34,770 bases of DNA, from positions 1 to 34,770 of the forward strand of contig JBGTAD010000014.1 in the NCBI GenBank assembly GCA_041750055.1. Direction: 5' to 3'. This DNA comes from Candidatus Absconditabacterales bacterium. GTDB taxonomy: Bacteria; Patescibacteriota; Gracilibacteria; Absconditabacterales; Absconditicoccaceae. Below the pieces are notes generated by a model, which was given only the letters and a program-made list of their open reading frames with translations, searched no databases and was not told the DNA's origin. Made by a program: the position numbers and the translations under genes. This document shows, in pieces, positions 253 to 26,851 of the stretch (the first letter of the stretch is position 1; every line of letters starts with the position of its first letter).

Positions 253-327
253 GATATATTCTTTTGTTGAATAGTAGATACAACCTCACTATCAATAGGT
301 CAGATTTTTTATGGTTTTGCATATAAC

Positions 328-1041: not shown

Positions 1042-1136
1042 CAAGAAGATAACTAAACTCACTCCTTGAAAACAACCTACAACCTCACTATGAACAGGTT
1101 AGATTTTTTATGTTTTTTTATAAGAATCTTCTGATC

Positions 1137-2555
1137 ATGCAACTCCACCTGTATAACACTCTCTCACGTAGCAAAGAGCTTTTCGTTCCTATTAATCCTG
1201 ATCTGGTAACGATTTATAGCTGTGGGCCGACGGTGTATTCTCGTCAGCACGTAGGGAATCTGAGAGCAGCATTCGTCGTAGATCTGCTCAAGAATGTCGT
1301 CAAGCATATCGCATGATATCCGACCAAGCATGTCATGAATATTACTGATGTCTGACATCTCACCGGAGACAACGAAGGCGACGCTGATCACGGAGAAGAT
1401 CGTATGGAAAAAGGCGCACGCAAAGAGGGGATTACAGCTCGAGATGTGGCTGCTAACATTACTCAGATATACATGGAGGATTTACATACGCTGCGTATCG
1501 ATCCTCTCGATGTCATGCCTAGAGCGACCGATCATATACCAGAGCAGATCTCCATGATCCAAGAGCTCGAATCCAAAGGCTATACCTATGCTATCGATGG
1601 AGATGGAGTCTATATGGATACATCCAAGATCAAGGATTACGGCAAACTCTTGTCCGCCAAACATCTCGCAGGACTAGAATCATGAGCAAGGATCAACGAT
1701 GCCGGTAAACGCAACCCTACGGATTTTGCACTCTGGAAATTCAACATCACGGGCAAAAAACGTGATATGGAGCGAGATAGCCCACGATGAGTAGGTTTTC
1801 CTGGGCGACATATCGAATGTAGTGCTATGAGTATGAGATATCTATGAACTCATATCGATATCCATACCTGAGGAATGGAACATATCCCTATCCACCATAC
1901 TAACGAGATCTGTCAGTCTGAGTGTAGTCACGGTCATCAGCCGCGAGTCAACGTTCGAGTACACTATCAGCGACTCATGATGAATGGCAAAAAAATAGCA
2001 AAATCTGACGGTAATTGCGCGTATCTTGACGATGAATTTACTTCCAGAGGTCTCGCCTGAGAAGATCTCAGATATTTTTTCCTCCAGGCACATTACAGAT
2101 CCTTTCAAGACTTCACTCGAGAGGGATTGGAAGCAGCGAAGAAATCCAGACAGAATTTGAAAAAACTCTTTGCTCCGTATCTCGAAGTACAAGCAGCATC
2201 ATCATACCAAGAAGATATTTCGTATCTGACAGAATTACTACTCGATGATCTCAATACGCCTCAGATGATCGCGAGACTCCGAGCAGGCGCAGATGCGCTA
2301 GATACGGCATTAGCGAGTGCCATCAGATGGTTGGATGAACATGTCTTGAAATTGTGATTGTTTGACCTCACCCCAACCCTCTCCTACGAGGAGAGGGGGA
2401 TCTCAGCTGAGATTCAAGATCTCGCTGCTCAGCGTCGACAAGCTAGACTCTCCAAAGATCGAGCCAAAGCTGACGCTCTGAGAGATGAACTCAAAGTACT
2501 AGGCTACGAGATGAATGATGGGAAAGAGGGATATGAGGTGGTGAAGATTTTTTAG
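1137..2555 (+). CDS. cysS: Cysteine--tRNA ligase
   Basis: Five track fragments in frame 3 are joined by TGA. Motifs: CGPTVY, NITDV-G(TGA)-H, SP-W-G.G.PG-W-HIECSAM (Trp positions are CGA), DIHT-G(TGA)-G..H.NE, VNV-W(CGA)-VH, KIAKSDGN (KMSKS). Stop TAG 2553-2555. ATG 1110 is a possible alternative start. Confidence 0.95.
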
Positions 2556-2575
2556 TGTTTTTATCAAATTTAGAT

Positions 2576-3163
2576 ATGACGACTATCATAACATTGAAAA
2601 CACAAGAGGGTATATATATATGATCTGACCTGCAGGTGTCTACAACGACATGATGAAAAACGGTTTCCACTTCTCCAACAGGAAAATTTCTTCACTTATG
2701 AGAATATTTAGTCGGAATCTCATGATGAAAAAAATATCAAAGAGCTCTTTTGACATATAGGTCAAAACTGCCTCCTCGTATTCATACAACTCATAGCGTA
2801 TATGATTTTTATTATTCGATCAAACAAATATTTGCTTGATTAGATTTTCTCCAGGAAGAAAAAGATGGTATCTCTAATTTTTGTGCATTAATTATAACAA
2901 ATAAAGATGTTTATAAACTTTATCATGATGGCGATGTTCAAATAACTGGAGATGATTTGTTGGATAATAATTTTATGACTATATGATCCGGATCTGATTA
3001 CGTAAAATGAGCTTATCATATACTAAAAGATACGAAAAAATCACCAAGAAAAATTGTTGAACAATGTATTCAAACTGCAAATTATTTTGATTTATATAGT
3101 AGTTGAGTATTTTCTATGAATGCTTCGGAATTTTTGGAGGCGAATATAGAACAAAAAACTTAA
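2576..3163 (+). CDS. HslV / proteasome beta-like Ntn-hydrolase (peptidase T1 family), orphan with no HslU nearby
   Basis: 195-aa frame-2 ORF visible only with UGA=Gly (about 13 TGA). Reads MTTIITLKTQEGIYIGSDLQ..VGISGG..ALIITNKDVY..MTIGSGSDYVKGAYHIL. This matches the HslV layout (MTTIVSV..GDGQ..GFAGG..LIITG.GDV..IAIGSGGPYA), including Thr2 as the would-be N-terminal nucleophile. Stop TAA 3161-3163. Confidence 0.7.
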
Positions 3164-3210
3164 TTTGTAATCTAAAATGCATGAATTTTAGAGCTAGAGT
3201 ATATTCTATT

Positions 3211-3289
3211 AGAGATGAGCTGAGGTCTCTGGGATACGAGATGAATGATGGGAAAGAGGGATATGAGGTGGTGAAGATTTTTTGATAAA
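3211..3289 (+). pseudogene. Displaced duplicate of the cysS 3' end (last ~25 codons)
   Basis: 3236-3283 is identical (48/48 nt) to 2506-2553. 3211-3235 is a diverged match to 2481-2505. It encodes ..RDELRSLGYEMNDGKEGYEVVKIF-G(TGA)-TAA, against RDELKVLGYEMNDGKEGYEVVKIF-TAG in the intact gene. No upstream cysS body is attached. Confidence 0.8.
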
Positions 3290-3296
3290 AAAATAA

Positions 3297-3314
3297 CCTC
3301 TTGCGAACAAGAGG
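3297..3314. terminator. GC-rich hairpin between convergent genes (probable bidirectional intrinsic terminator)
   Basis: CCTCTTG-cgaa-CAAGAGG, preceded by an A-run (3287-3294). It lies between the cysS-tail duplicate (+) and the 3322-3660 gene (-). Confidence 0.6.
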
Positions 3315-3321
3315 CGTAGGT

Positions 3322-3660
3322 TTAATGCTTATCGATATATCTATACTGAGGTGTTAGTAGTCCATAATACCATCCTACACTAGGATTAATTTCATGTCCC
3401 AGTATGATATCTCCCACTTTGGGTATTTGGTTCTTGGTACAAGATCTGCCAAACACAACATATCTTTCATTCACCCACATTGCCCAAATATAGGTCTCAA
3501 TAGGTTTGTCGCAGTCAATAACCTCTTGCAAATTTGTGGGTCGTTTGATGTATTCGATACTCGAAACTTTACCACGAATACTCACAGGGCTATCTATACT
3601 GCTTTTTTCTTGTAAGAAAAAGAAAAAAGAAGCCAGCAATACAAATAATATTTTTTTCAT
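3322..3660 (-). CDS. Small secreted hypothetical protein (signal peptide)
   Basis: Uninterrupted 112-aa ORF starting MKKILFVLLASFFFFLQ.. (hydrophobic signal-like N-terminus). ATG 3658-3660, true stop TAA 3322-3324. No homology recognised. Confidence 0.6.
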   Translation of the reverse strand: MKKILFVLLASFFFFLQEKSSIDSPVSIRGKVSSIEYIKRPTNLQEVIDCDKPIETYIWAMWVNERYVVFGRSCTKNQIPKVGDIILGHEINPSVGWYYGLLTPQYRYIDKH

Positions 3661-3743
3661 TTCAGATTTTTTGTTTTACTTTGTGTGTATATACATATTC
3701 AATATTTAAAGTCAATGGAAAATATTGAAATCTGATGATGTTG

Positions 3744-4253
3744 CTATCGTAGTGATTTCCCAATGATGAGGCCATTCAAGATCAAGAAGATCAGATTTCC
3801 TATCCATTCAGCTTGTTTGGGTGAAGACGTGAGTCGTCCCAATCCGTCAATGATCGCATGACGTCGCAAAAACAGGTACAACATCAAGTACGTTCCAGGT
3901 ATGATATGAGCATATCGTGGATAGACACTAATATCTTGTCCAAATAATCAGACGATTTTTTCTAATACTGTCATGATTCGTCCGATGCTGAGTAGTGAGT
4001 TGATCAATAACCGTATCACTTTGTCTACGCCGAAGATGGTCAGATAAAAAACCGTATACACCGATATCGCTATCCCTCCATGTAATGCAGCGAACCAGTA
4101 TTCTGCAGCCCCATAACTGATAAAAAATCCTGACACGCCAAATGCCAACATATGGATCCCAAAGAATGGATAGACAAATCGCTTGGCGCTATTCAAAGGC
4201 GTCGCTTTGCCGTTGATGGTGATTTCTTGAGCTGGTCATAGAGAGCTATTCAT
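3744..4253 (-). CDS. Hypothetical multi-pass membrane protein
   Basis: ATG 4251-4253. The 82-aa track ORF extends in both directions through TGA codons (4236-4238 and 3948-3950). 169 aa with several hydrophobic spans. Stop TAG at 3744-3746. Confidence 0.55.
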
Positions 4254-4374
4254 ATCAATTCGTATAGGAGATGAGGTCAGATTTTCAAGATCTTTTGTCA
4301 AAAGTCTTGCGCTTAGATATATAGTTTAGTAATAAATAGTATCACGATTTTATCAATGATAGTAACGAAACGTA

Positions 4375-10772: not shown

Positions 10773-12011
10773 CTATGGTGTTGTATAACGTTGTTTGTTT
10801 GTGAAGCTTGTTTGTAGAGTGATGCCATAGAGTTTGAGCGAGTTGGCAGGTATTTGTCCGCGTCGATATTCTCCATACAAATTGCTCGTGAAGCGGATTG
10901 TCACATACGAACTTATTTGAGATCCGCTAGATATTCGAGAAAGACTCGGATCACTATTAGGGCTGATAGATAAAGATCGTTCGCTTACCGTTAGATCGCG
11001 TCATAGCAGACTAATCCATCCATCATTTGTGTTTGCGGGGAGACGATATCCGGTGTATGCTCATCCCATATTTTGTCACTGACAAATAAATCATTCATTC
11101 AGATCACATGCTCGTGTATCGATTTTCCCATCGTAGACCCCGCTGGATGTCGTGACGTTGAAGTCATGATTTGTACCAGCGTCAAATCCTTTGAGTCTGA
11201 GTATCTGCAAAGAATATAATCTATCGACACTGCTATTGCCAGTAATACCATCATTATCTCGGTCTCCACTACCCAGCAATTGTCTCCTGATAAATATCCT
11301 AGAATCCTTGGATGGAGAAATGAGGTACAACTCCTGAGCTCAAGATCCTCACATGAGTGCGACGGGTCAGATTCCAAGATCTTTGTCATCATCATCTCCT
11401 GCTGATCATACCAGTGAGCTATTTACTTCGTCGGCTACATCGATATGTTGTAGTGCATATTGTCCAAAAGACTGGTATTGAGGCTGTGTAAATCTTCATG
11501 GGTTGTACTGATAGCATCCTCATCATAGATTTACAGATGTATTTTTGAATGTAATACGAGGGTAGGAGGGCATGGTCTCATCGGTACCGATACTCGAGCT
11601 ACAGTAGTACAGATGATGTCATGACTGAGAATCTCCATTTATGATAAATGTATCGATACTATTGGCATTGCCATAATGAGTGAACAATCCACAAGAAGCC
11701 CCTGTACCGACATCTCGTAGTGGTAATCCTACGGTATTACAGCCTACCAATTGTCTATTAAAGTATTCTTCATAGTCGATCGAATAATCTCTCAAGAGGG
11801 TATTGATTTTTTCGAGGGTAAAGTATGATTGCTGAATGAGAGCTTGCCTAGCAGAAGAATCTGCCTTGATTGTGACCATCTGACGATACACGCCCAATAC
11901 TGTCGTCATGATCAAGAAAAAAATCGTGATAGCCGTCAACATTTCCATGAGTGTGAATCAATGTATCTGGCGACGATACATGTTGCGAAGACGACAAGAT
12001 GTGCAAACCAT
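10773..12011 (-). CDS. Type IV pilin-like protein (large pseudopilin / minor pilin) with prepilin N-terminal cleavage-methylation motif
   Basis: Reads ..MYRRQIH-G(TGA 11958-11960)|FTLMEMLTAITIFFLIMTTVLGV... This is the classic G|FTLxE plus hydrophobic helix. The frame is continuous for 412 aa to TAG 10773-10775. The start could instead be ATG 11979-11981. Confidence 0.75.
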
Positions 12012-12206
12012 AAATTCATATACAAAACAAACAAAATCTGATAACTCATACCTATGGTTTGAATAGCTTGTTTCAAGCGATTGTGGGTATGAAAATATAT
12101 TTCTACATGAATGTCAATCCAAGATAGCACCCATCATTTGCAACTGCTATTTTTTTGGATATAGTGTGGTATTAGATTTTTATTTTATTGTTCATGATTA
12201 CAACCT

Positions 12207-16251: not shown

Positions 16252-16527
16252 TTATTTCTTACATTGTTTGCATATTTGTGTATGGTGACGAGTCCATTGG
16301 ACTAGAGTAGAGAGCGATATGTCGAATTGTCTTGCTACGTGTCTAGCAGAAGATCACAGGTGTTTGTATGTCTCTACGACTTGTTGTTTGAATGCTTCTG
16401 TGTACGTATCATATTTTCCTCCTAGACTAAAATATTCATTACATGGGAGGCATTTATATCTCTGCGCTCCAGAGGGGAGTTTTCCGTTTTTGCGGACTTG
16501 GCTTGTGTGACAATTGATACACTCCAT
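16252..16527 (-). CDS. IS1 InsA-like zinc-ribbon plus HTH protein (stand-alone)
   Basis: Reads MECINCHTSQVRKNGKLPSGAQRYKCLPCNEYF..ARHVARQFDISLSTLVQW... This matches the InsA pattern C..C....V.KNGK...G.QRY.C..C followed by an HTH. 91 aa. No transposase ORF follows. Confidence 0.6.
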
Positions 16528-18866: not shown

Positions 18867-18957
18867 GTATAAAACATCCACGATCTATCTATCAAGACGT
18901 GATGATTTGTCATCTTTCAACAAATATCACGAACGAACAAAAATATTATAAAAATAT

Positions 18958-19003
18958 AAAAAAATCTGACCATCATCAATATCGATATGTGTCAGATTTT
19001 TTT
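18958..19003. terminator. AT-only hairpin built from an inverted pair of the AAATCTGA/TCAGATTT motif
   Basis: AAAAAAATCTGAC (18958-18970) pairs with GTCAGATTTTTTT (18991-19003) around a 20-nt loop. It sits between two + genes, so terminator and/or promoter roles are possible. Confidence 0.4.
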
Positions 19004-22184: not shown

Positions 22185-22217
22185 TCACTACCGTTCTGAC
22201 TCTCCAAAATCAATGAT

Positions 22218-22250
22218 AAAAAAATCTGACCAATGTATAGTCAGATTTTT
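22218..22250. terminator. AT-only hairpin built from an inverted AAATCTGA/TCAGATTT pair
   Basis: AAAAATCTGAC (22220-22230) pairs perfectly with GTCAGATTTTT (22240-22250) around a 9-nt loop. It lies downstream of the 22326-24932 gene and upstream of copy B and alr. Confidence 0.45.
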
Positions 22251-25255: not shown

Positions 25256-26851
25256 ATGCTCAACAATCTCATCAAGACTATCCTCGAGCTCAGTGATGTC
25301 CAGACGATCAAACCTAGCTTTGAACTCATCGGCATCCTGAGTCAAGCTGTCGCATCTCGTGTGCAGGCAGTGATTTTTGATGGTGAAGGCAAGAAATTGG
25401 CTATCTTAACTACGAACAACTTTCCTACTCAGCTCCAACAGATCATCGAACGCCTCGAATCTCAATGATATACCTGCAAACTGTACTACACTGATCCAGC
25501 TAGTATCGAATATGCTCTGACCCGATATGACCTCAAAGCAAAAGCAGAATCTGAACAACAAACATTGTTACAATCACAAAAAGACGCTGCCTGAGTCAAC
25601 GCCCTCGAGCTGATCAATACTACCTATGAGCAAAAAGGCAACAGAGATGAAGGTGATGTGATCGTGGATTTGGTCAGATTTAGTTTTCAGGCTGGAGCGA
25701 GCGATTTACATTTTCAGCCAGAAGAAGACGGCGTGCATATGAGAGTCAGGATCGACGGAGTACTCAAGCAGGTCTTGTTTTTTGATCATAAAGAATTCGC
25801 CAGATATCTGCAAAAGATCAAATTCATCTCAGGGATGAAAATGAATATCGACTATGTTCCCCAGGATGGAAGGTTTAGCTTCGTGGTCGAGCAACACGGT
25901 GAATCTAAGACCATCGACGTCCGTGTCAACTGTATGCCTGGTTTGCATAATGAAAGTACCGTCATGAGATATCTAGATGGTACCAAAGGTATCCAACGTT
26001 TTGAAGATATCGGGTTTTGGGGAGAGAATTATGAGACTCTCAAGACCTGACTCCAAGAAAACTTCGGGATGGTGCTCGTGACTGGTCCTACAGGTAGTGG
26101 TAAAACAACCACGCTATACAGCATGCTCAACACCCTCAATGATGGCTCTCGCAAGATCATCACGCTCGAAGATCCGATCGAGTATATGGTATCAGGGCTT
26201 CAACAATCTCAGATCAACTACACCAAAGGATATGACTATGCAATTGGGCTCAAAGCTATCCTGCGTCATGATCCAGAAATCATTCTCATCGGAGAGACTC
26301 GTGATGCAGAGACTGCTCAGATAGCTCTCAATGCTGCACTCACAGGACATCTCGTGTTCACAACACTCCATACCAATGGTGCTCTGGAGGCGATTGACCG
26401 TATCATCAATATGGGAGTCAAAGGGTATATGCTAGCCCCAGCTCTGAGTATGGTCATGGGTCAGAGATTAGTCAGGAAATTGTGTAGCTGTGCAACCCGC
26501 CAACCAGCAGATTATGCTCAGACACAGCAGATCAAAGAATGAATCAAAAAAATATTAGAAATCAGACCCTGAATACGTACAGTGGGTTGAAATCCTTTGG
26601 AGTTTGATGGATCACTCATGCATCCGGTAGGGTGTGCGGTATGTAATGGTACCGGATACAAAGGACGTATCGCAGTCGTAGAAATTCTTGCTATTTCTTC
26701 TGAGCTCAAGGTCATGATTACTGAGGGAAGATCTACCTTCGATATCTATGCCAAAGCACGTGAGTTAGGTTTTCTCACTCTCCAAGAAGATACTCTGATC
26801 AAAGTACTTGACGGACTCACAACGATCGAAGAAATGAGGAGGGTCGTGTAG
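25256..26851 (+). CDS. pilB: Type IV pilus assembly / type II secretion ATPase (PilB/GspE family)
   Basis: Four track fragments are in frame 2. Motifs: ..ASDLHF.P......R.R.DG.L.., Walker A VLVTGPTGSGKTTTLYS, ..LRHDPEIILIGETRD..TGHLVFTTLHTN.., tetracysteine C.C....C..C.GTGYKGR. Stop TAG 26849-26851. Confidence 0.9.

What the first reader, a model, noticed from the sequence alone, without database searches (positions are those of the whole stretch)
2481..3289. 730-bp insertion bracketed by a duplicated cysS 3' end
The last ~73 nt of cysS occur twice as direct repeats, at 2481-2553 and 3211-3283. The distal 48 nt are identical. The proximal 25 nt differ at about 8 positions, with several amino-acid changes (ALRDELKVLGY versus SIRDELRSLGY).

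The intact gene uses the first copy and ends F-TAG. The orphaned second copy ends F-TGA-TAA and is followed by the only good GC hairpin terminator in the region (3297-3314).

This is the footprint left by elements that integrate into the 3' end of a gene and bring a replacement end with them. tRNA- and tmRNA-targeting islands do this. Here, however, the cargo is a single 195-aa gene, with no integrase and no att-like structure visible beyond the repeat.
Basis: seen in the sequence. Interest (0 to 1): 0.65.

Follow-up and report, generated by a model that had tools for sequence, protein, structure and literature searches.

The report
One-gene insertion duplicating the cysS end
A 730-bp, low-GC piece of DNA carrying one phage-type HslV-like peptidase gene sits between two copies of the cysS gene end in a TGA-recoded Absconditabacterium. 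A related strain has the unoccupied site, so this is a small integrase-less insertion rather than a new kind of mobile element.

Summary
The repeat is real. Positions 2505-2553 and 3235-3283 are identical (49 nt), and the 27 nt before them differ at 11 positions. That is a sharp recombination breakpoint (Fisher p = 2e-6).

A related strain in a cold-spring metagenome, seen in a DNA run (X2) and an RNA run (X6), joins cysS position 2477 directly to 3208. It skips exactly 730 bp and lacks the cargo. So an empty site exists, and its cysS uses the orphan-type end.

The cargo ORF (2576-3163, 195 aa, 29% GC against 46% for cysS) has ten in-frame TGA codons that fall on conserved glycines. It belongs to a phage-borne HslV/proteasome-like peptidase family (phrog_1040; 70 viral contigs encode relatives).

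I found no integrase, tRNA, structured RNA, attC-like hairpin or second copy.

Best reading: a non-autonomous insertion with Campbell-type topology, recombined through the 49-nt block, using DNA that carried a sister-strain cysS end. Two alternatives remain open. One is a decayed island whose integrase is lost or acts in trans. The other is a one-sided illegitimate join that brought in a foreign replacement end.

This is a new member of a known kind, of moderate interest.

The parts
1137..2555 (+). cysS (cysteinyl-tRNA synthetase), 472 aa under code 25, ending ...VVKIF-TAG. Its last 26 codons make up repeat copy 1.
   Evidence: Pfam tRNA-synt_1e, E = 2.2e-74. Contains 8 in-frame TGA codons. 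Relatives at 50-66% identity are Absconditabacterales/SR1.
2478..2504 (+). U segment: the in-frame 27 nt (LRDELKVLG) of copy 1. It differs from the orphan copy at 11 of 27 positions.
   Evidence: The X2 and X6 strains do not carry this version; their alignment leaves the window at 2477.
2505..2553 (+). R1: 49-nt block identical to 3235-3283, encoding the last 16 sense codons of cysS. Probable crossover or att-like segment.
   Evidence: The X1 assembly graph collapses it into one 49-nt node of about double depth.
2554..3207 (+). Unique part of the insertion (654 bp, 29% GC). It holds the cargo gene plus 22 nt upstream and 44 nt downstream.
   Evidence: Composition. Absent from X2. Present at 100% identity in X1, X3 and X4.
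2576..3163 (+). Cargo ORF, 195 aa: a stand-alone HslV/proteasome-like Ntn peptidase of a phage-borne family. Key motifs are MTT at the N-terminus, GSD, GKF, GISGG and IGSGSDY.
   Evidence: phrog_1040, E = 6.6e-16. Pfam Proteasome covers residues 2-178 but scores below its cut-off. PDB matches to BPH and HslV start at Thr1. Aligns with 12 viral homologues. 70 IMG/VR loci encode relatives.
3171..3192 (+). Small AT-rich hairpin just after the cargo stop codon.
   Evidence: Its function was not tested.
3191..3207 (+). 17 nt with weak in-register similarity (10/17) to cysS 2461-2477. It ends at the novel joint 3207|3208.
3208..3234 (+). P segment: orphan 27 nt (IRDELRSLG). This is the version used by the uninterrupted cysS of the related strain.
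   Evidence: X2 and X6 contigs run 2477 to 3208-3283 with 1 mismatch in 76 nt.
3235..3283 (+). R2: second copy of the 49-nt block, followed by TGA(Gly)-TAA.
3296..3315 (-). GC hairpin terminator. Its T-run is on the minus strand, so it serves the convergent 112-aa gene and is possibly bidirectional.
3284..3771 (.). Variable spacer downstream of cysS (34% GC), including a 112-aa secreted-type ORF at 3322-3660 on the minus strand. It has no counterpart in X2. X2 carries other DNA directly after the 49-nt block and matches the window again from 3772.

Best explanation
This is a non-autonomous, one-gene insertion at the 3' end of cysS. It has the topology of a Campbell-type (single-crossover) integration through the 49-nt block that ends the gene.

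The incoming DNA consisted of three parts: a 27-nt cysS fragment of the sister-strain (X2-type) allele, the 49-nt block, and a phage-derived HslV-like peptidase gene lying immediately downstream of it. Recombination inside the identical block placed the cargo after the resident cysS. The resident gene stays intact and now stops at TAG. The incoming cysS fragment, joined to the resident block, was left as an orphan in front of the old downstream DNA.

I infer the enzyme to be the host's homologous-recombination machinery, acting on DNA from a related strain, for example after DNA uptake. The insert itself encodes no recombinase. Recombination between the two 49-nt copies would delete the cassette cleanly and leave a working cysS.

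**Shown:** the repeat, the empty site, absence of the cargo in the empty-site strain, the breakpoints at 2477|2478, 2504|2505, 2553|2554, 3207|3208 and 3283|3284, the foreign composition, the cargo family, and the lack of an integrase in the window.

**Inferred:** the direction of the event, a crossover inside the block, the donor, and the enzyme.
For: - **Empty site.** Two independent libraries of another sample join 2477 directly to 3208. Each contig passes unbranched through a single copy of the block.
- **Cargo distribution.** The cargo is absent from X2. In X1 its depth equals that of the chromosome.
- **Sharp breakpoint.** There are 11/27 differences against 0/49, Fisher p = 2e-6. Zero differences in 49 nt is unlikely even at 6-12% divergence (p = 0.05 to 0.002). 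That is expected if the block was the recombination substrate.
- **The block's end is a junction.** Three different sequences follow it: the cargo, the window's own downstream DNA, and X2's downstream DNA.
- **Stop codon.** Both X2 and the cargo-side junction have TAG straight after the block. The window's distal copy has TGA-TAA. This fits an X2-type donor.
- **Mosaic background.** The window and X2 differ by 0.4% over 1280-2031, with short patches of 17-41% divergence further on. A resident U-type patch is therefore plausible.
- **No recombinase.** None is present in the insert or the window, and there is no tRNA or Rfam match.
- **Precedent.** Single crossover of a circular molecule carrying a truncated gene end gave 109-950 bp duplications of that end in E. 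coli (PMC3240628).
Against: - The empty-site strain's cysS carries the orphan-type 27 nt. The simplest reading of that is that the orphan is the native end and copy 1 is foreign, which is rival 2.
- A 730-bp circular or concatemeric intermediate is hypothetical.
- A 49-nt identity is a short substrate for RecA.
- No second strain with the cassette at another allele was found, and no excised form was seen. Only k=31 contigs were available, and they cannot bridge a 49-nt repeat.
- The cargo has no close relative anywhere, so no donor is known.
Confidence: 0.42

Rival explanations
1. Remnant of an integrase-mediated element: a prophage or island that targeted the cysS 3' end, with the 49-nt block as its att core. 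Either it has lost its integrase and all but one gene (a CIME-like relic that keeps attL and attR), or it is a satellite mobilised by an integrase encoded elsewhere.
For: [quoted passage not shown] This is the classical attL/attR/attB picture.
- The cargo belongs to a phage-borne family.
- The insert has foreign GC content.
- CIMEs are defined as elements that lost their integration genes but kept attL and attR (PMC5704250).
Against: - No integrase or recombinase is present in the insert or the 34.8-kb window.
- The insert is a tidy single ORF with no pseudogene debris.
- No cognate element or other occurrence of the core was found.
- The arm next to the core in the orphan copy is an in-frame cysS fragment almost identical to the X2 allele. 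An att arm has no reason to look like that.
Confidence: 0.25
2. DNA from a more distant lineage, carrying its own cysS 3' end followed by the cargo, recombined homologously inside cysS on the left. On the right it was joined illegitimately at 3207|3208 to codon 448 of the resident gene. This is homology-facilitated illegitimate recombination. Copy 1 is then the imported replacement end and the orphan is the native end. The 49-nt identity arose later by gene conversion, or because that stretch is conserved.
For: - The empty-site allele matches the orphan over all 76 nt, with 1 mismatch.
- Only one novel joint is needed. It shows a 2-nt microhomology, or a 10/17 patch of similarity.
- Divergence from X2 rises from 0.4% to about 4-6% across the 3' third of cysS, as expected for a co-imported anchor.
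- The window encodes pilin-type proteins consistent with DNA uptake.
Against: - An imported end that is 41% divergent over 27 nt should not be identical over the next 49 nt (p below 0.002 at 12% divergence). An extra conversion event is therefore needed.
- Even the best-conserved distant relative differs at 5 of 33 positions in that stretch.
Confidence: 0.22
3. An old local tandem duplication of the cysS end, with the cargo gene gained or evolved afterwards. No insertion event occurred.
For: The two copies are in direct orientation and in register.
Against: - A related strain has a single copy and no cargo.
- The intervening DNA is compositionally foreign and phage-like.
- None of 82 other cysS loci shows such a duplication.
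Confidence: 0.04
4. An assembly artefact. The metagenome assembler may have threaded two strains, or an empty site plus a separate molecule, through a shared 49-nt repeat.
For: - The k=31 contigs of X1 break at both copies, and the repeat is a collapsed node.
- X1 holds a second strain about 10% divergent in cysS.
Against: - Single unitigs link the cargo 3' end to the orphan fragment: X1 2825-3264 and X3 3114-3293. The orphan is therefore physically next to the cargo.
- A 49-nt repeat is shorter than an ordinary read.
- The alternative would be a free 730-bp circle at chromosomal depth, which is implausible.
Confidence: 0.05

Closest known systems
Genomic islands, prophages, ICEs and IMEs integrated in the 3' end of a gene, and their decayed forms (CIMEs)
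   Same: - Direct repeats flank the insert, and one copy completes the target gene.
- An unoccupied site exists in a relative.
- The insert has foreign composition and phage-type cargo.
- Like a CIME, it has no integration genes (PMC5704250).
   Different: - The insert is only 730 bp with a single gene.
- No integrase is present and no cognate complete element is known.
- The sequence next to the core in the orphan copy is an in-frame fragment of a sister allele of the target gene.
- The target is a protein-coding aminoacyl-tRNA synthetase gene in a TGA-recoded CPR bacterium.
Single-crossover (Campbell) integration of a circular DNA carrying a truncated gene end, and homology-facilitated illegitimate recombination
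   Same: - Both produce a partial duplication of a gene end around foreign DNA without any dedicated recombinase. Duplications of 109-950 bp of the lacZ end are reported in PMC3240628.
- One junction shows microhomology.
   Different: - Those are laboratory events with plasmids.
- Here the homology is only 49-76 nt, and the intermediate is unknown.
C-terminal displacement with orphan ends (Rhs/CdiA toxin loci; the mobile ORF plus foreign atp6 end in Allomyces mitochondria). Recalled from memory, not tested here.
   Same: A new gene end arrives together with an accompanying gene, and the old end is left downstream as an orphan fragment.
   Different: - cysS is a housekeeping enzyme, not a polymorphic toxin.
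- The cargo is a peptidase, not an immunity protein or a homing endonuclease.
HslV / bacterial proteasome homologue (BPH) / phage HslV-family peptidases (phrog_1040)
   Same: - The cargo has a Thr directly after the start Met.
- It carries the GxD, Lys, GxxGG and IGSGxxY motifs.
- It aligns full-length to phage homologues, and from Thr1 to BPH and HslV.
   Different: - Identity to any relative is only 25-31%.
- It scores below the Pfam gathering cut-off.
- No HslU partner was seen.
- One population variant (X1) is frameshifted.

Membership tests
Integrase-mediated integrative element (island or prophage) in a gene 3' end | Direct repeats (attL/attR) flank the element, with one copy restoring the target gene's end. 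| tested here: met
   49-nt identical repeat. Copy 1 completes cysS.
Integrase-mediated integrative element (island or prophage) in a gene 3' end | An unoccupied attB exists in related genomes. | tested here: met
   X2 (DNA) and X6 (RNA) contigs join 2477 to 3208 and hold a single copy of the block.
Integrase-mediated integrative element (island or prophage) in a gene 3' end | A tyrosine or serine recombinase encoded by the element next to an att site. | tested here: not met
   The insert holds one peptidase ORF. Pfam scans of the window's ORFs found no integrase, only an IS1 InsA-like fragment 13 kb away.
Integrase-mediated integrative element (island or prophage) in a gene 3' end | An excised circular form (attP junction) or restored attB within the same population. 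| not testable with these tools
   Only k=31 Logan contigs are held for X1, X3 and X4. They cannot bridge a 49-nt repeat.
CIME (decayed element that keeps attL/attR) | att sites are retained and integration and transfer genes are lost. | tested here: met
   Definition taken from PMC5704250.
CIME (decayed element that keeps attL/attR) | A cognate complete element with the same att specificity exists. | tested here: not met
   No other occurrence of the core in JGI metagenomes. No close cargo relative in phage, viral or protein collections. The search is limited by database content.
HslV / proteasome-type Ntn peptidase (cargo) | An N-terminal Thr nucleophile plus the conserved Asp, Lys and Gly-Ser-Gly positions. 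| tested here: met
   Invariant columns T2, T3, G16, D18, G47, G50 and I136-G139 in alignments with BPH, HslV, P0123 and 12 viral homologues.
HslV / proteasome-type Ntn peptidase (cargo) | Significant match to a curated family model. | tested here: inconclusive
   phrog_1040 E = 6.6e-16. Pfam Proteasome scores 15.5 bits against a 22.4-bit cut-off. NCBIfam HslV matches the C-terminal part only.
Diversity-generating retroelement (VR/TR pair at a gene 3' end) | Mismatches confined to adenines of the template repeat, with a reverse transcriptase nearby. | tested here: not met
   The 11 mismatches are of all kinds. No RT is present in the window. The orphan version is a natural allele in X2.
Integron gene cassette | An attC imperfect palindrome at the cassette end, with IntI and attI. 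| tested here: not met
   No extended hairpin in the repeat or at the cassette end. No integrase.
Homology-driven insertion (single crossover or HFIR) | A breakpoint at the edge of an identity block, and one illegitimate joint with microhomology. | tested here: inconclusive
   The breakpoint at 2504|2505 is significant. The joint 3207|3208 has a 2-nt microhomology or a 10/17 patch of similarity. The enzyme and the intermediate cannot be tested.

The most novel reading that the evidence does not exclude
The cassette may be a minimal, recombinase-free hitch-hiker. By carrying a copy of the conserved last 49-76 nt of an essential gene, it would have a portable homology arm. That arm would let it enter and leave cysS by host recombination and spread between Absconditabacteria strains through DNA uptake. 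This could act together with the strongly over-represented TCAGATTTTTT word, a one-mismatch variant of which ends the block.
Probability: 0.12. Interest if true: 0.6.

Novelty: new member of a known kind. Interest (0 to 1): 0.4.

Why it matters
- It is a clean, base-pair-resolved example of gene gain in a TGA-recoded CPR bacterium. Filled and empty alleles come from different springs.
- It shows a phage-family peptidase gene entering next to an essential gene without any recombinase of its own.
- It shows that the cysS-downstream spacer is a strain-variable hot spot.
- If the homology-arm reading holds, it would illustrate how small cassettes move in organisms thought to rely on DNA uptake.
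- It does not reveal a new class of element.

Tried and rejected
- **DGR (VR/TR) reading: rejected.** Mismatches are not adenine-specific and there is no RT.
- **Integron cassette: rejected.** No attC-like hairpin.
- **tRNA, tmRNA or structured-RNA target: none found**.
- **Defence-system cargo: no PADLOC hit**.
- **Closer cysS relatives for more empty sites.** Genome contigs gave at most 66% identity with different neighbours. A C-terminal protein search did not recover the X2 fragment. A degenerate scan for the core in JGI metagenomes gave 0 hits.
- **Other copies of the cargo.** Only itself among 5.8 billion clustered proteins. Among 1.84 billion representatives, one genuine 29% relative plus one spurious partial hit to a large repeat protein. 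That query had Trp at the TGA sites, which lowers sensitivity. Nothing in INPHARED phages, and no close copy in IMG/VR.
- **Exact-sequence look-up of the cargo's contig: not on record**.
- **RNA runs for the window's own locus: none**.
- **Additional runs X5, X7 and X8** held only short or divergent pieces and gave no junction information.
- **X2's downstream 30-mer is not in the window**.
- **Control:** none of 80 other cysS loci duplicates its 3' end.
Full report
**Observation**

Reading the window and searching for repeats confirm one outstanding direct repeat, 2461-2553 against 3191-3283, with a spacing of 730 bp. Base-by-base comparison divides it into three zones.

| Zone | Copy 1 | Copy 2 | Differences |
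|---|---|---|---|
| Weak similarity | 2461-2477 | 3191-3207 | 7 of 17 (10/17 identical, p about 0.004-0.013) |
| Divergent 27 nt | 2478-2504 | 3208-3234 | 11 of 27; 7 of 9 codons differ |
| Identical block | 2505-2553 | 3235-3283 | 0 of 49 |

About 2e-21 exact 49-nt repeats are expected by chance in this window. The step from 41% to 0% divergence is highly significant (Fisher p = 2e-6). There is therefore a true recombination or conversion breakpoint at 2504|2505.

The organism reads TGA as glycine. cysS (1137-2555) has 8 in-frame TGA codons and the inserted ORF has 10. In the inserted ORF they fall on the conserved glycines of the GISGG and IGSG motifs. The orphan frame therefore ends F-G-TAA.

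The hairpin at 3296-3315 has its T-run on the minus strand. It terminates the convergent 112-aa gene at 3322-3660.

**The gene in between**

The stretch 2554-3207 is 29% GC, against 46% for cysS and 38% for the whole window. It holds one ORF, 2576-3163, of 195 aa.

- It matches phrog_1040, 'peptidase HslV family', at E = 6.6e-16.
- It matches the Pfam Proteasome model over residues 2-178 but below the curated cut-off.
- It matches the C-terminal part of NCBIfam HslV models.
- It matches PDB chains of the beta-proteobacterial proteasome homologue and of HslV, weakly, with alignments starting at Thr1.
- In alignments with those proteins, and with twelve viral homologues, the Met-Thr-Thr start, the G-x-D motif, the lysine, G-x-x-G-G and I-G-S-G-x-x-Y are all conserved.

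Close relatives do not exist in the collections searched.

- It finds only itself among 5.8 billion clustered proteins.
- Among 1.84 billion representatives it finds one genuine 29%-identical protein, P0123, also phrog_1040, plus one spurious partial hit to a large repeat protein, P0122.
- Nothing is found in deposited phage genomes.
- Seventy IMG/VR viral contigs encode full-length relatives at 25-31% identity. One lies beside a portal-like gene.

The cargo is thus a divergent member of a phage-borne stand-alone Ntn-peptidase family. It evolved in a TGA=Gly background. It matches no PADLOC defence model.

**The empty site**

The k-mer index found the locus in four runs. X1 (hot spring) is the likely source, and X3 and X4 belong to the same study. 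All three hold pieces of the insertion at 100% identity.

X2, a cold-spring metagenome from another study, holds a 1041-nt contig with the following structure.

- It follows cysS to 2477.
- It then continues at 3208-3283 with one mismatch in 76 nt.
- It then carries 519 nt unlike anything in the window, beginning AGATGAATCC.

The contig is unbranched through the 49-nt block, so that strain has a single copy. X2 has no real match to the cargo. An RNA library from the same sample (X6) carries the same joint and the same continuation.

So an unoccupied allele exists. It is transcribed, and its cysS ends with the orphan-type 27 nt plus the block plus TAG.

X2 matches the window again only from 3772. 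The whole spacer 3284-3771 is therefore strain-specific as well. Three different sequences follow the last base of the block: the cargo, the window's own downstream DNA, and X2's downstream DNA.

**What the polymorphism pattern says**

Divergence between the window and X2 is very uneven.

| Region | Differences |
|---|---|
| 1280-2031 | 3 of 752 (0.4%) |
| 2056-2084 | 5 in about 30 nt |
| 2023-2357 overall | about 3.6% |
| 2358-2414 (hairpin region) | heavy change, with in-frame indels |
| 2415-2477 | 4 of 63 |
| Orphan copy 3208-3283 | 1 of 76 |

Short, highly divergent patches are thus normal in this gene's 3' third.

Two readings fit the data.

*Reading A.* The in-frame U segment is the window lineage's own allele. 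A piece of DNA of the form [P segment + block + cargo], taken from an X2-type strain, recombined through the block.
- This explains the perfect 49-nt identity and the sharp edge.
- It also explains why both X2 and the cargo-side junction have TAG directly after the block, while the distal copy has TGA-TAA.
- It needs a circular or concatemeric intermediate.
- A laboratory precedent exists: single crossover of circles carrying a truncated lacZ end gave 109-950 bp duplications of that end (PMC3240628).

*Reading B.* The orphan is the native end, as in X2. Copy 1 came in with the cargo from a more distant lineage, and one illegitimate joint formed at 3207|3208.
- This explains the X2 match most simply.
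- It needs a later conversion to make the 49 nt identical. The chance of zero differences is about 0.002 at 12% divergence, and the best-conserved distant relative differs at 5 of 33 positions there.

By a rough estimate of my own, the two readings are nearly equally likely. I give a slight edge to A.

An integrase-mediated origin shares the topology of A. This could be a prophage remnant or a CIME, defined as an element that retains attL/attR but has lost its integration genes (PMC5704250). It has no positive support.
- There is no recombinase in the insert or the window.
- No cognate element was found.
- The arm next to the core in the orphan copy is an in-frame cysS allele fragment, which an att arm would not be.

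**Artefact and duplication checks**

The Logan k=31 graph of X1 breaks at both copies and collapses the block into one node of about double depth. These contigs therefore cannot by themselves distinguish the integrated form from an empty site plus a circle.

However, single unitigs link the cargo's 3' end to the orphan fragment: X1 2825-3264 and X3 3114-3293. A free 730-bp circle at chromosomal depth is implausible.

An old local duplication is contradicted by the empty site and by the foreign composition of the insert. None of 80 other cysS loci, nor the closest Absconditabacterales loci, duplicates its 3' end.

The DGR, integron, tRNA and Rfam readings were tested and rejected.

**Verdict**

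It is unproven on which copy is foreign.

This is a small, non-autonomous islet carrying a phage-type HslV-like peptidase gene. It is a new member of the known class of 3'-end-duplicating insertions. It is of moderate interest, mainly as a resolved case of gene flux in a recoded CPR bacterium.

Noticed in passing
window, 9 sites: 300, 611, 3662, 15463, 15810, 18959, 18992, 22219, 29636: The 11-mer TCAGATTTTTT (reverse complement AAAAAATCTGA) occurs 9 times against 0.11 expected. The 9-mer AGATTTTTT occurs 13 times against about 1 expected. Sites lie in both orientations and in both coding and intergenic DNA. Inverted pairs near 18950-19002 and 22200-22240 form hairpins flanked by an A-tract and a T-tract. 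This behaviour resembles a DNA uptake sequence or a shared terminator stem. The cysS 49-nt block ends with a one-mismatch variant.
   Followed up: partly
window 2366-2400 (palindrome 2377-2397): A perfect 8-bp-stem palindrome, CCCTCTCC-TACGA-GGAGAGGG, lies inside cysS and codes TLSYEERG. The 35-nt stretch matches many unrelated contigs, at up to about 170x depth, in runs X1-X5, X7 and X8. The X2 cysS allele has in-frame indels there. It could be a small palindromic repeat shared across organisms. It occurs only once in the window.
   Followed up: partly
window 267-323 and 1066-1122: A 57-nt block, 81% identical between the two sites, lies upstream of the DUF218 gene and of cysS. It reads TTGAAn, 17 nt, TATnAA, then AGATTTTTTATG. 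It looks like a shared promoter and leader module.
   Followed up: no
window 2875 (cargo ORF): The X1 Logan contig lacks one base here relative to the window. That would frameshift the peptidase after about residue 100. It is either a population variant in which the cargo is already decaying, or an assembly difference.
   Followed up: partly
window 3284-3771: The spacer between cysS and the conserved membrane-protein gene (3744-4301, minus strand) has no counterpart in strain X2, which carries other DNA there. The spacer holds a 112-aa signal-peptide ORF with no family match. The cysS-downstream position is a strain-variable hot spot independent of the 730-bp insert.
   Followed up: partly
window 1059-2477 (cysS): cysS is mosaic relative to strain X2. 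Divergence is 0.4% over 1280-2031, followed by short patches of 17-41% divergence. The C-terminal domain resembles a different clade of Absconditabacterales cysS (P0010, P0015, P0017) than the N-terminal part does (P0003).
   Followed up: partly
window 16252-16527 (-): A 91-aa ORF carries an IS1 InsA zinc ribbon and a transposase HTH domain, with no adjacent InsB-like gene. It is a lone IS1-type fragment or regulator, and the only transposition-related gene in the window.
   Followed up: no
window 10773-12143 (-) and 25256-26851 (+): A 456-aa protein has a prepilin N-terminal methylation motif. A 531-aa ORF looks by eye like a PilB/GspE-type ATPase, but was not scanned. Both are consistent with a type IV pilus or DNA-uptake apparatus.
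   Followed up: no
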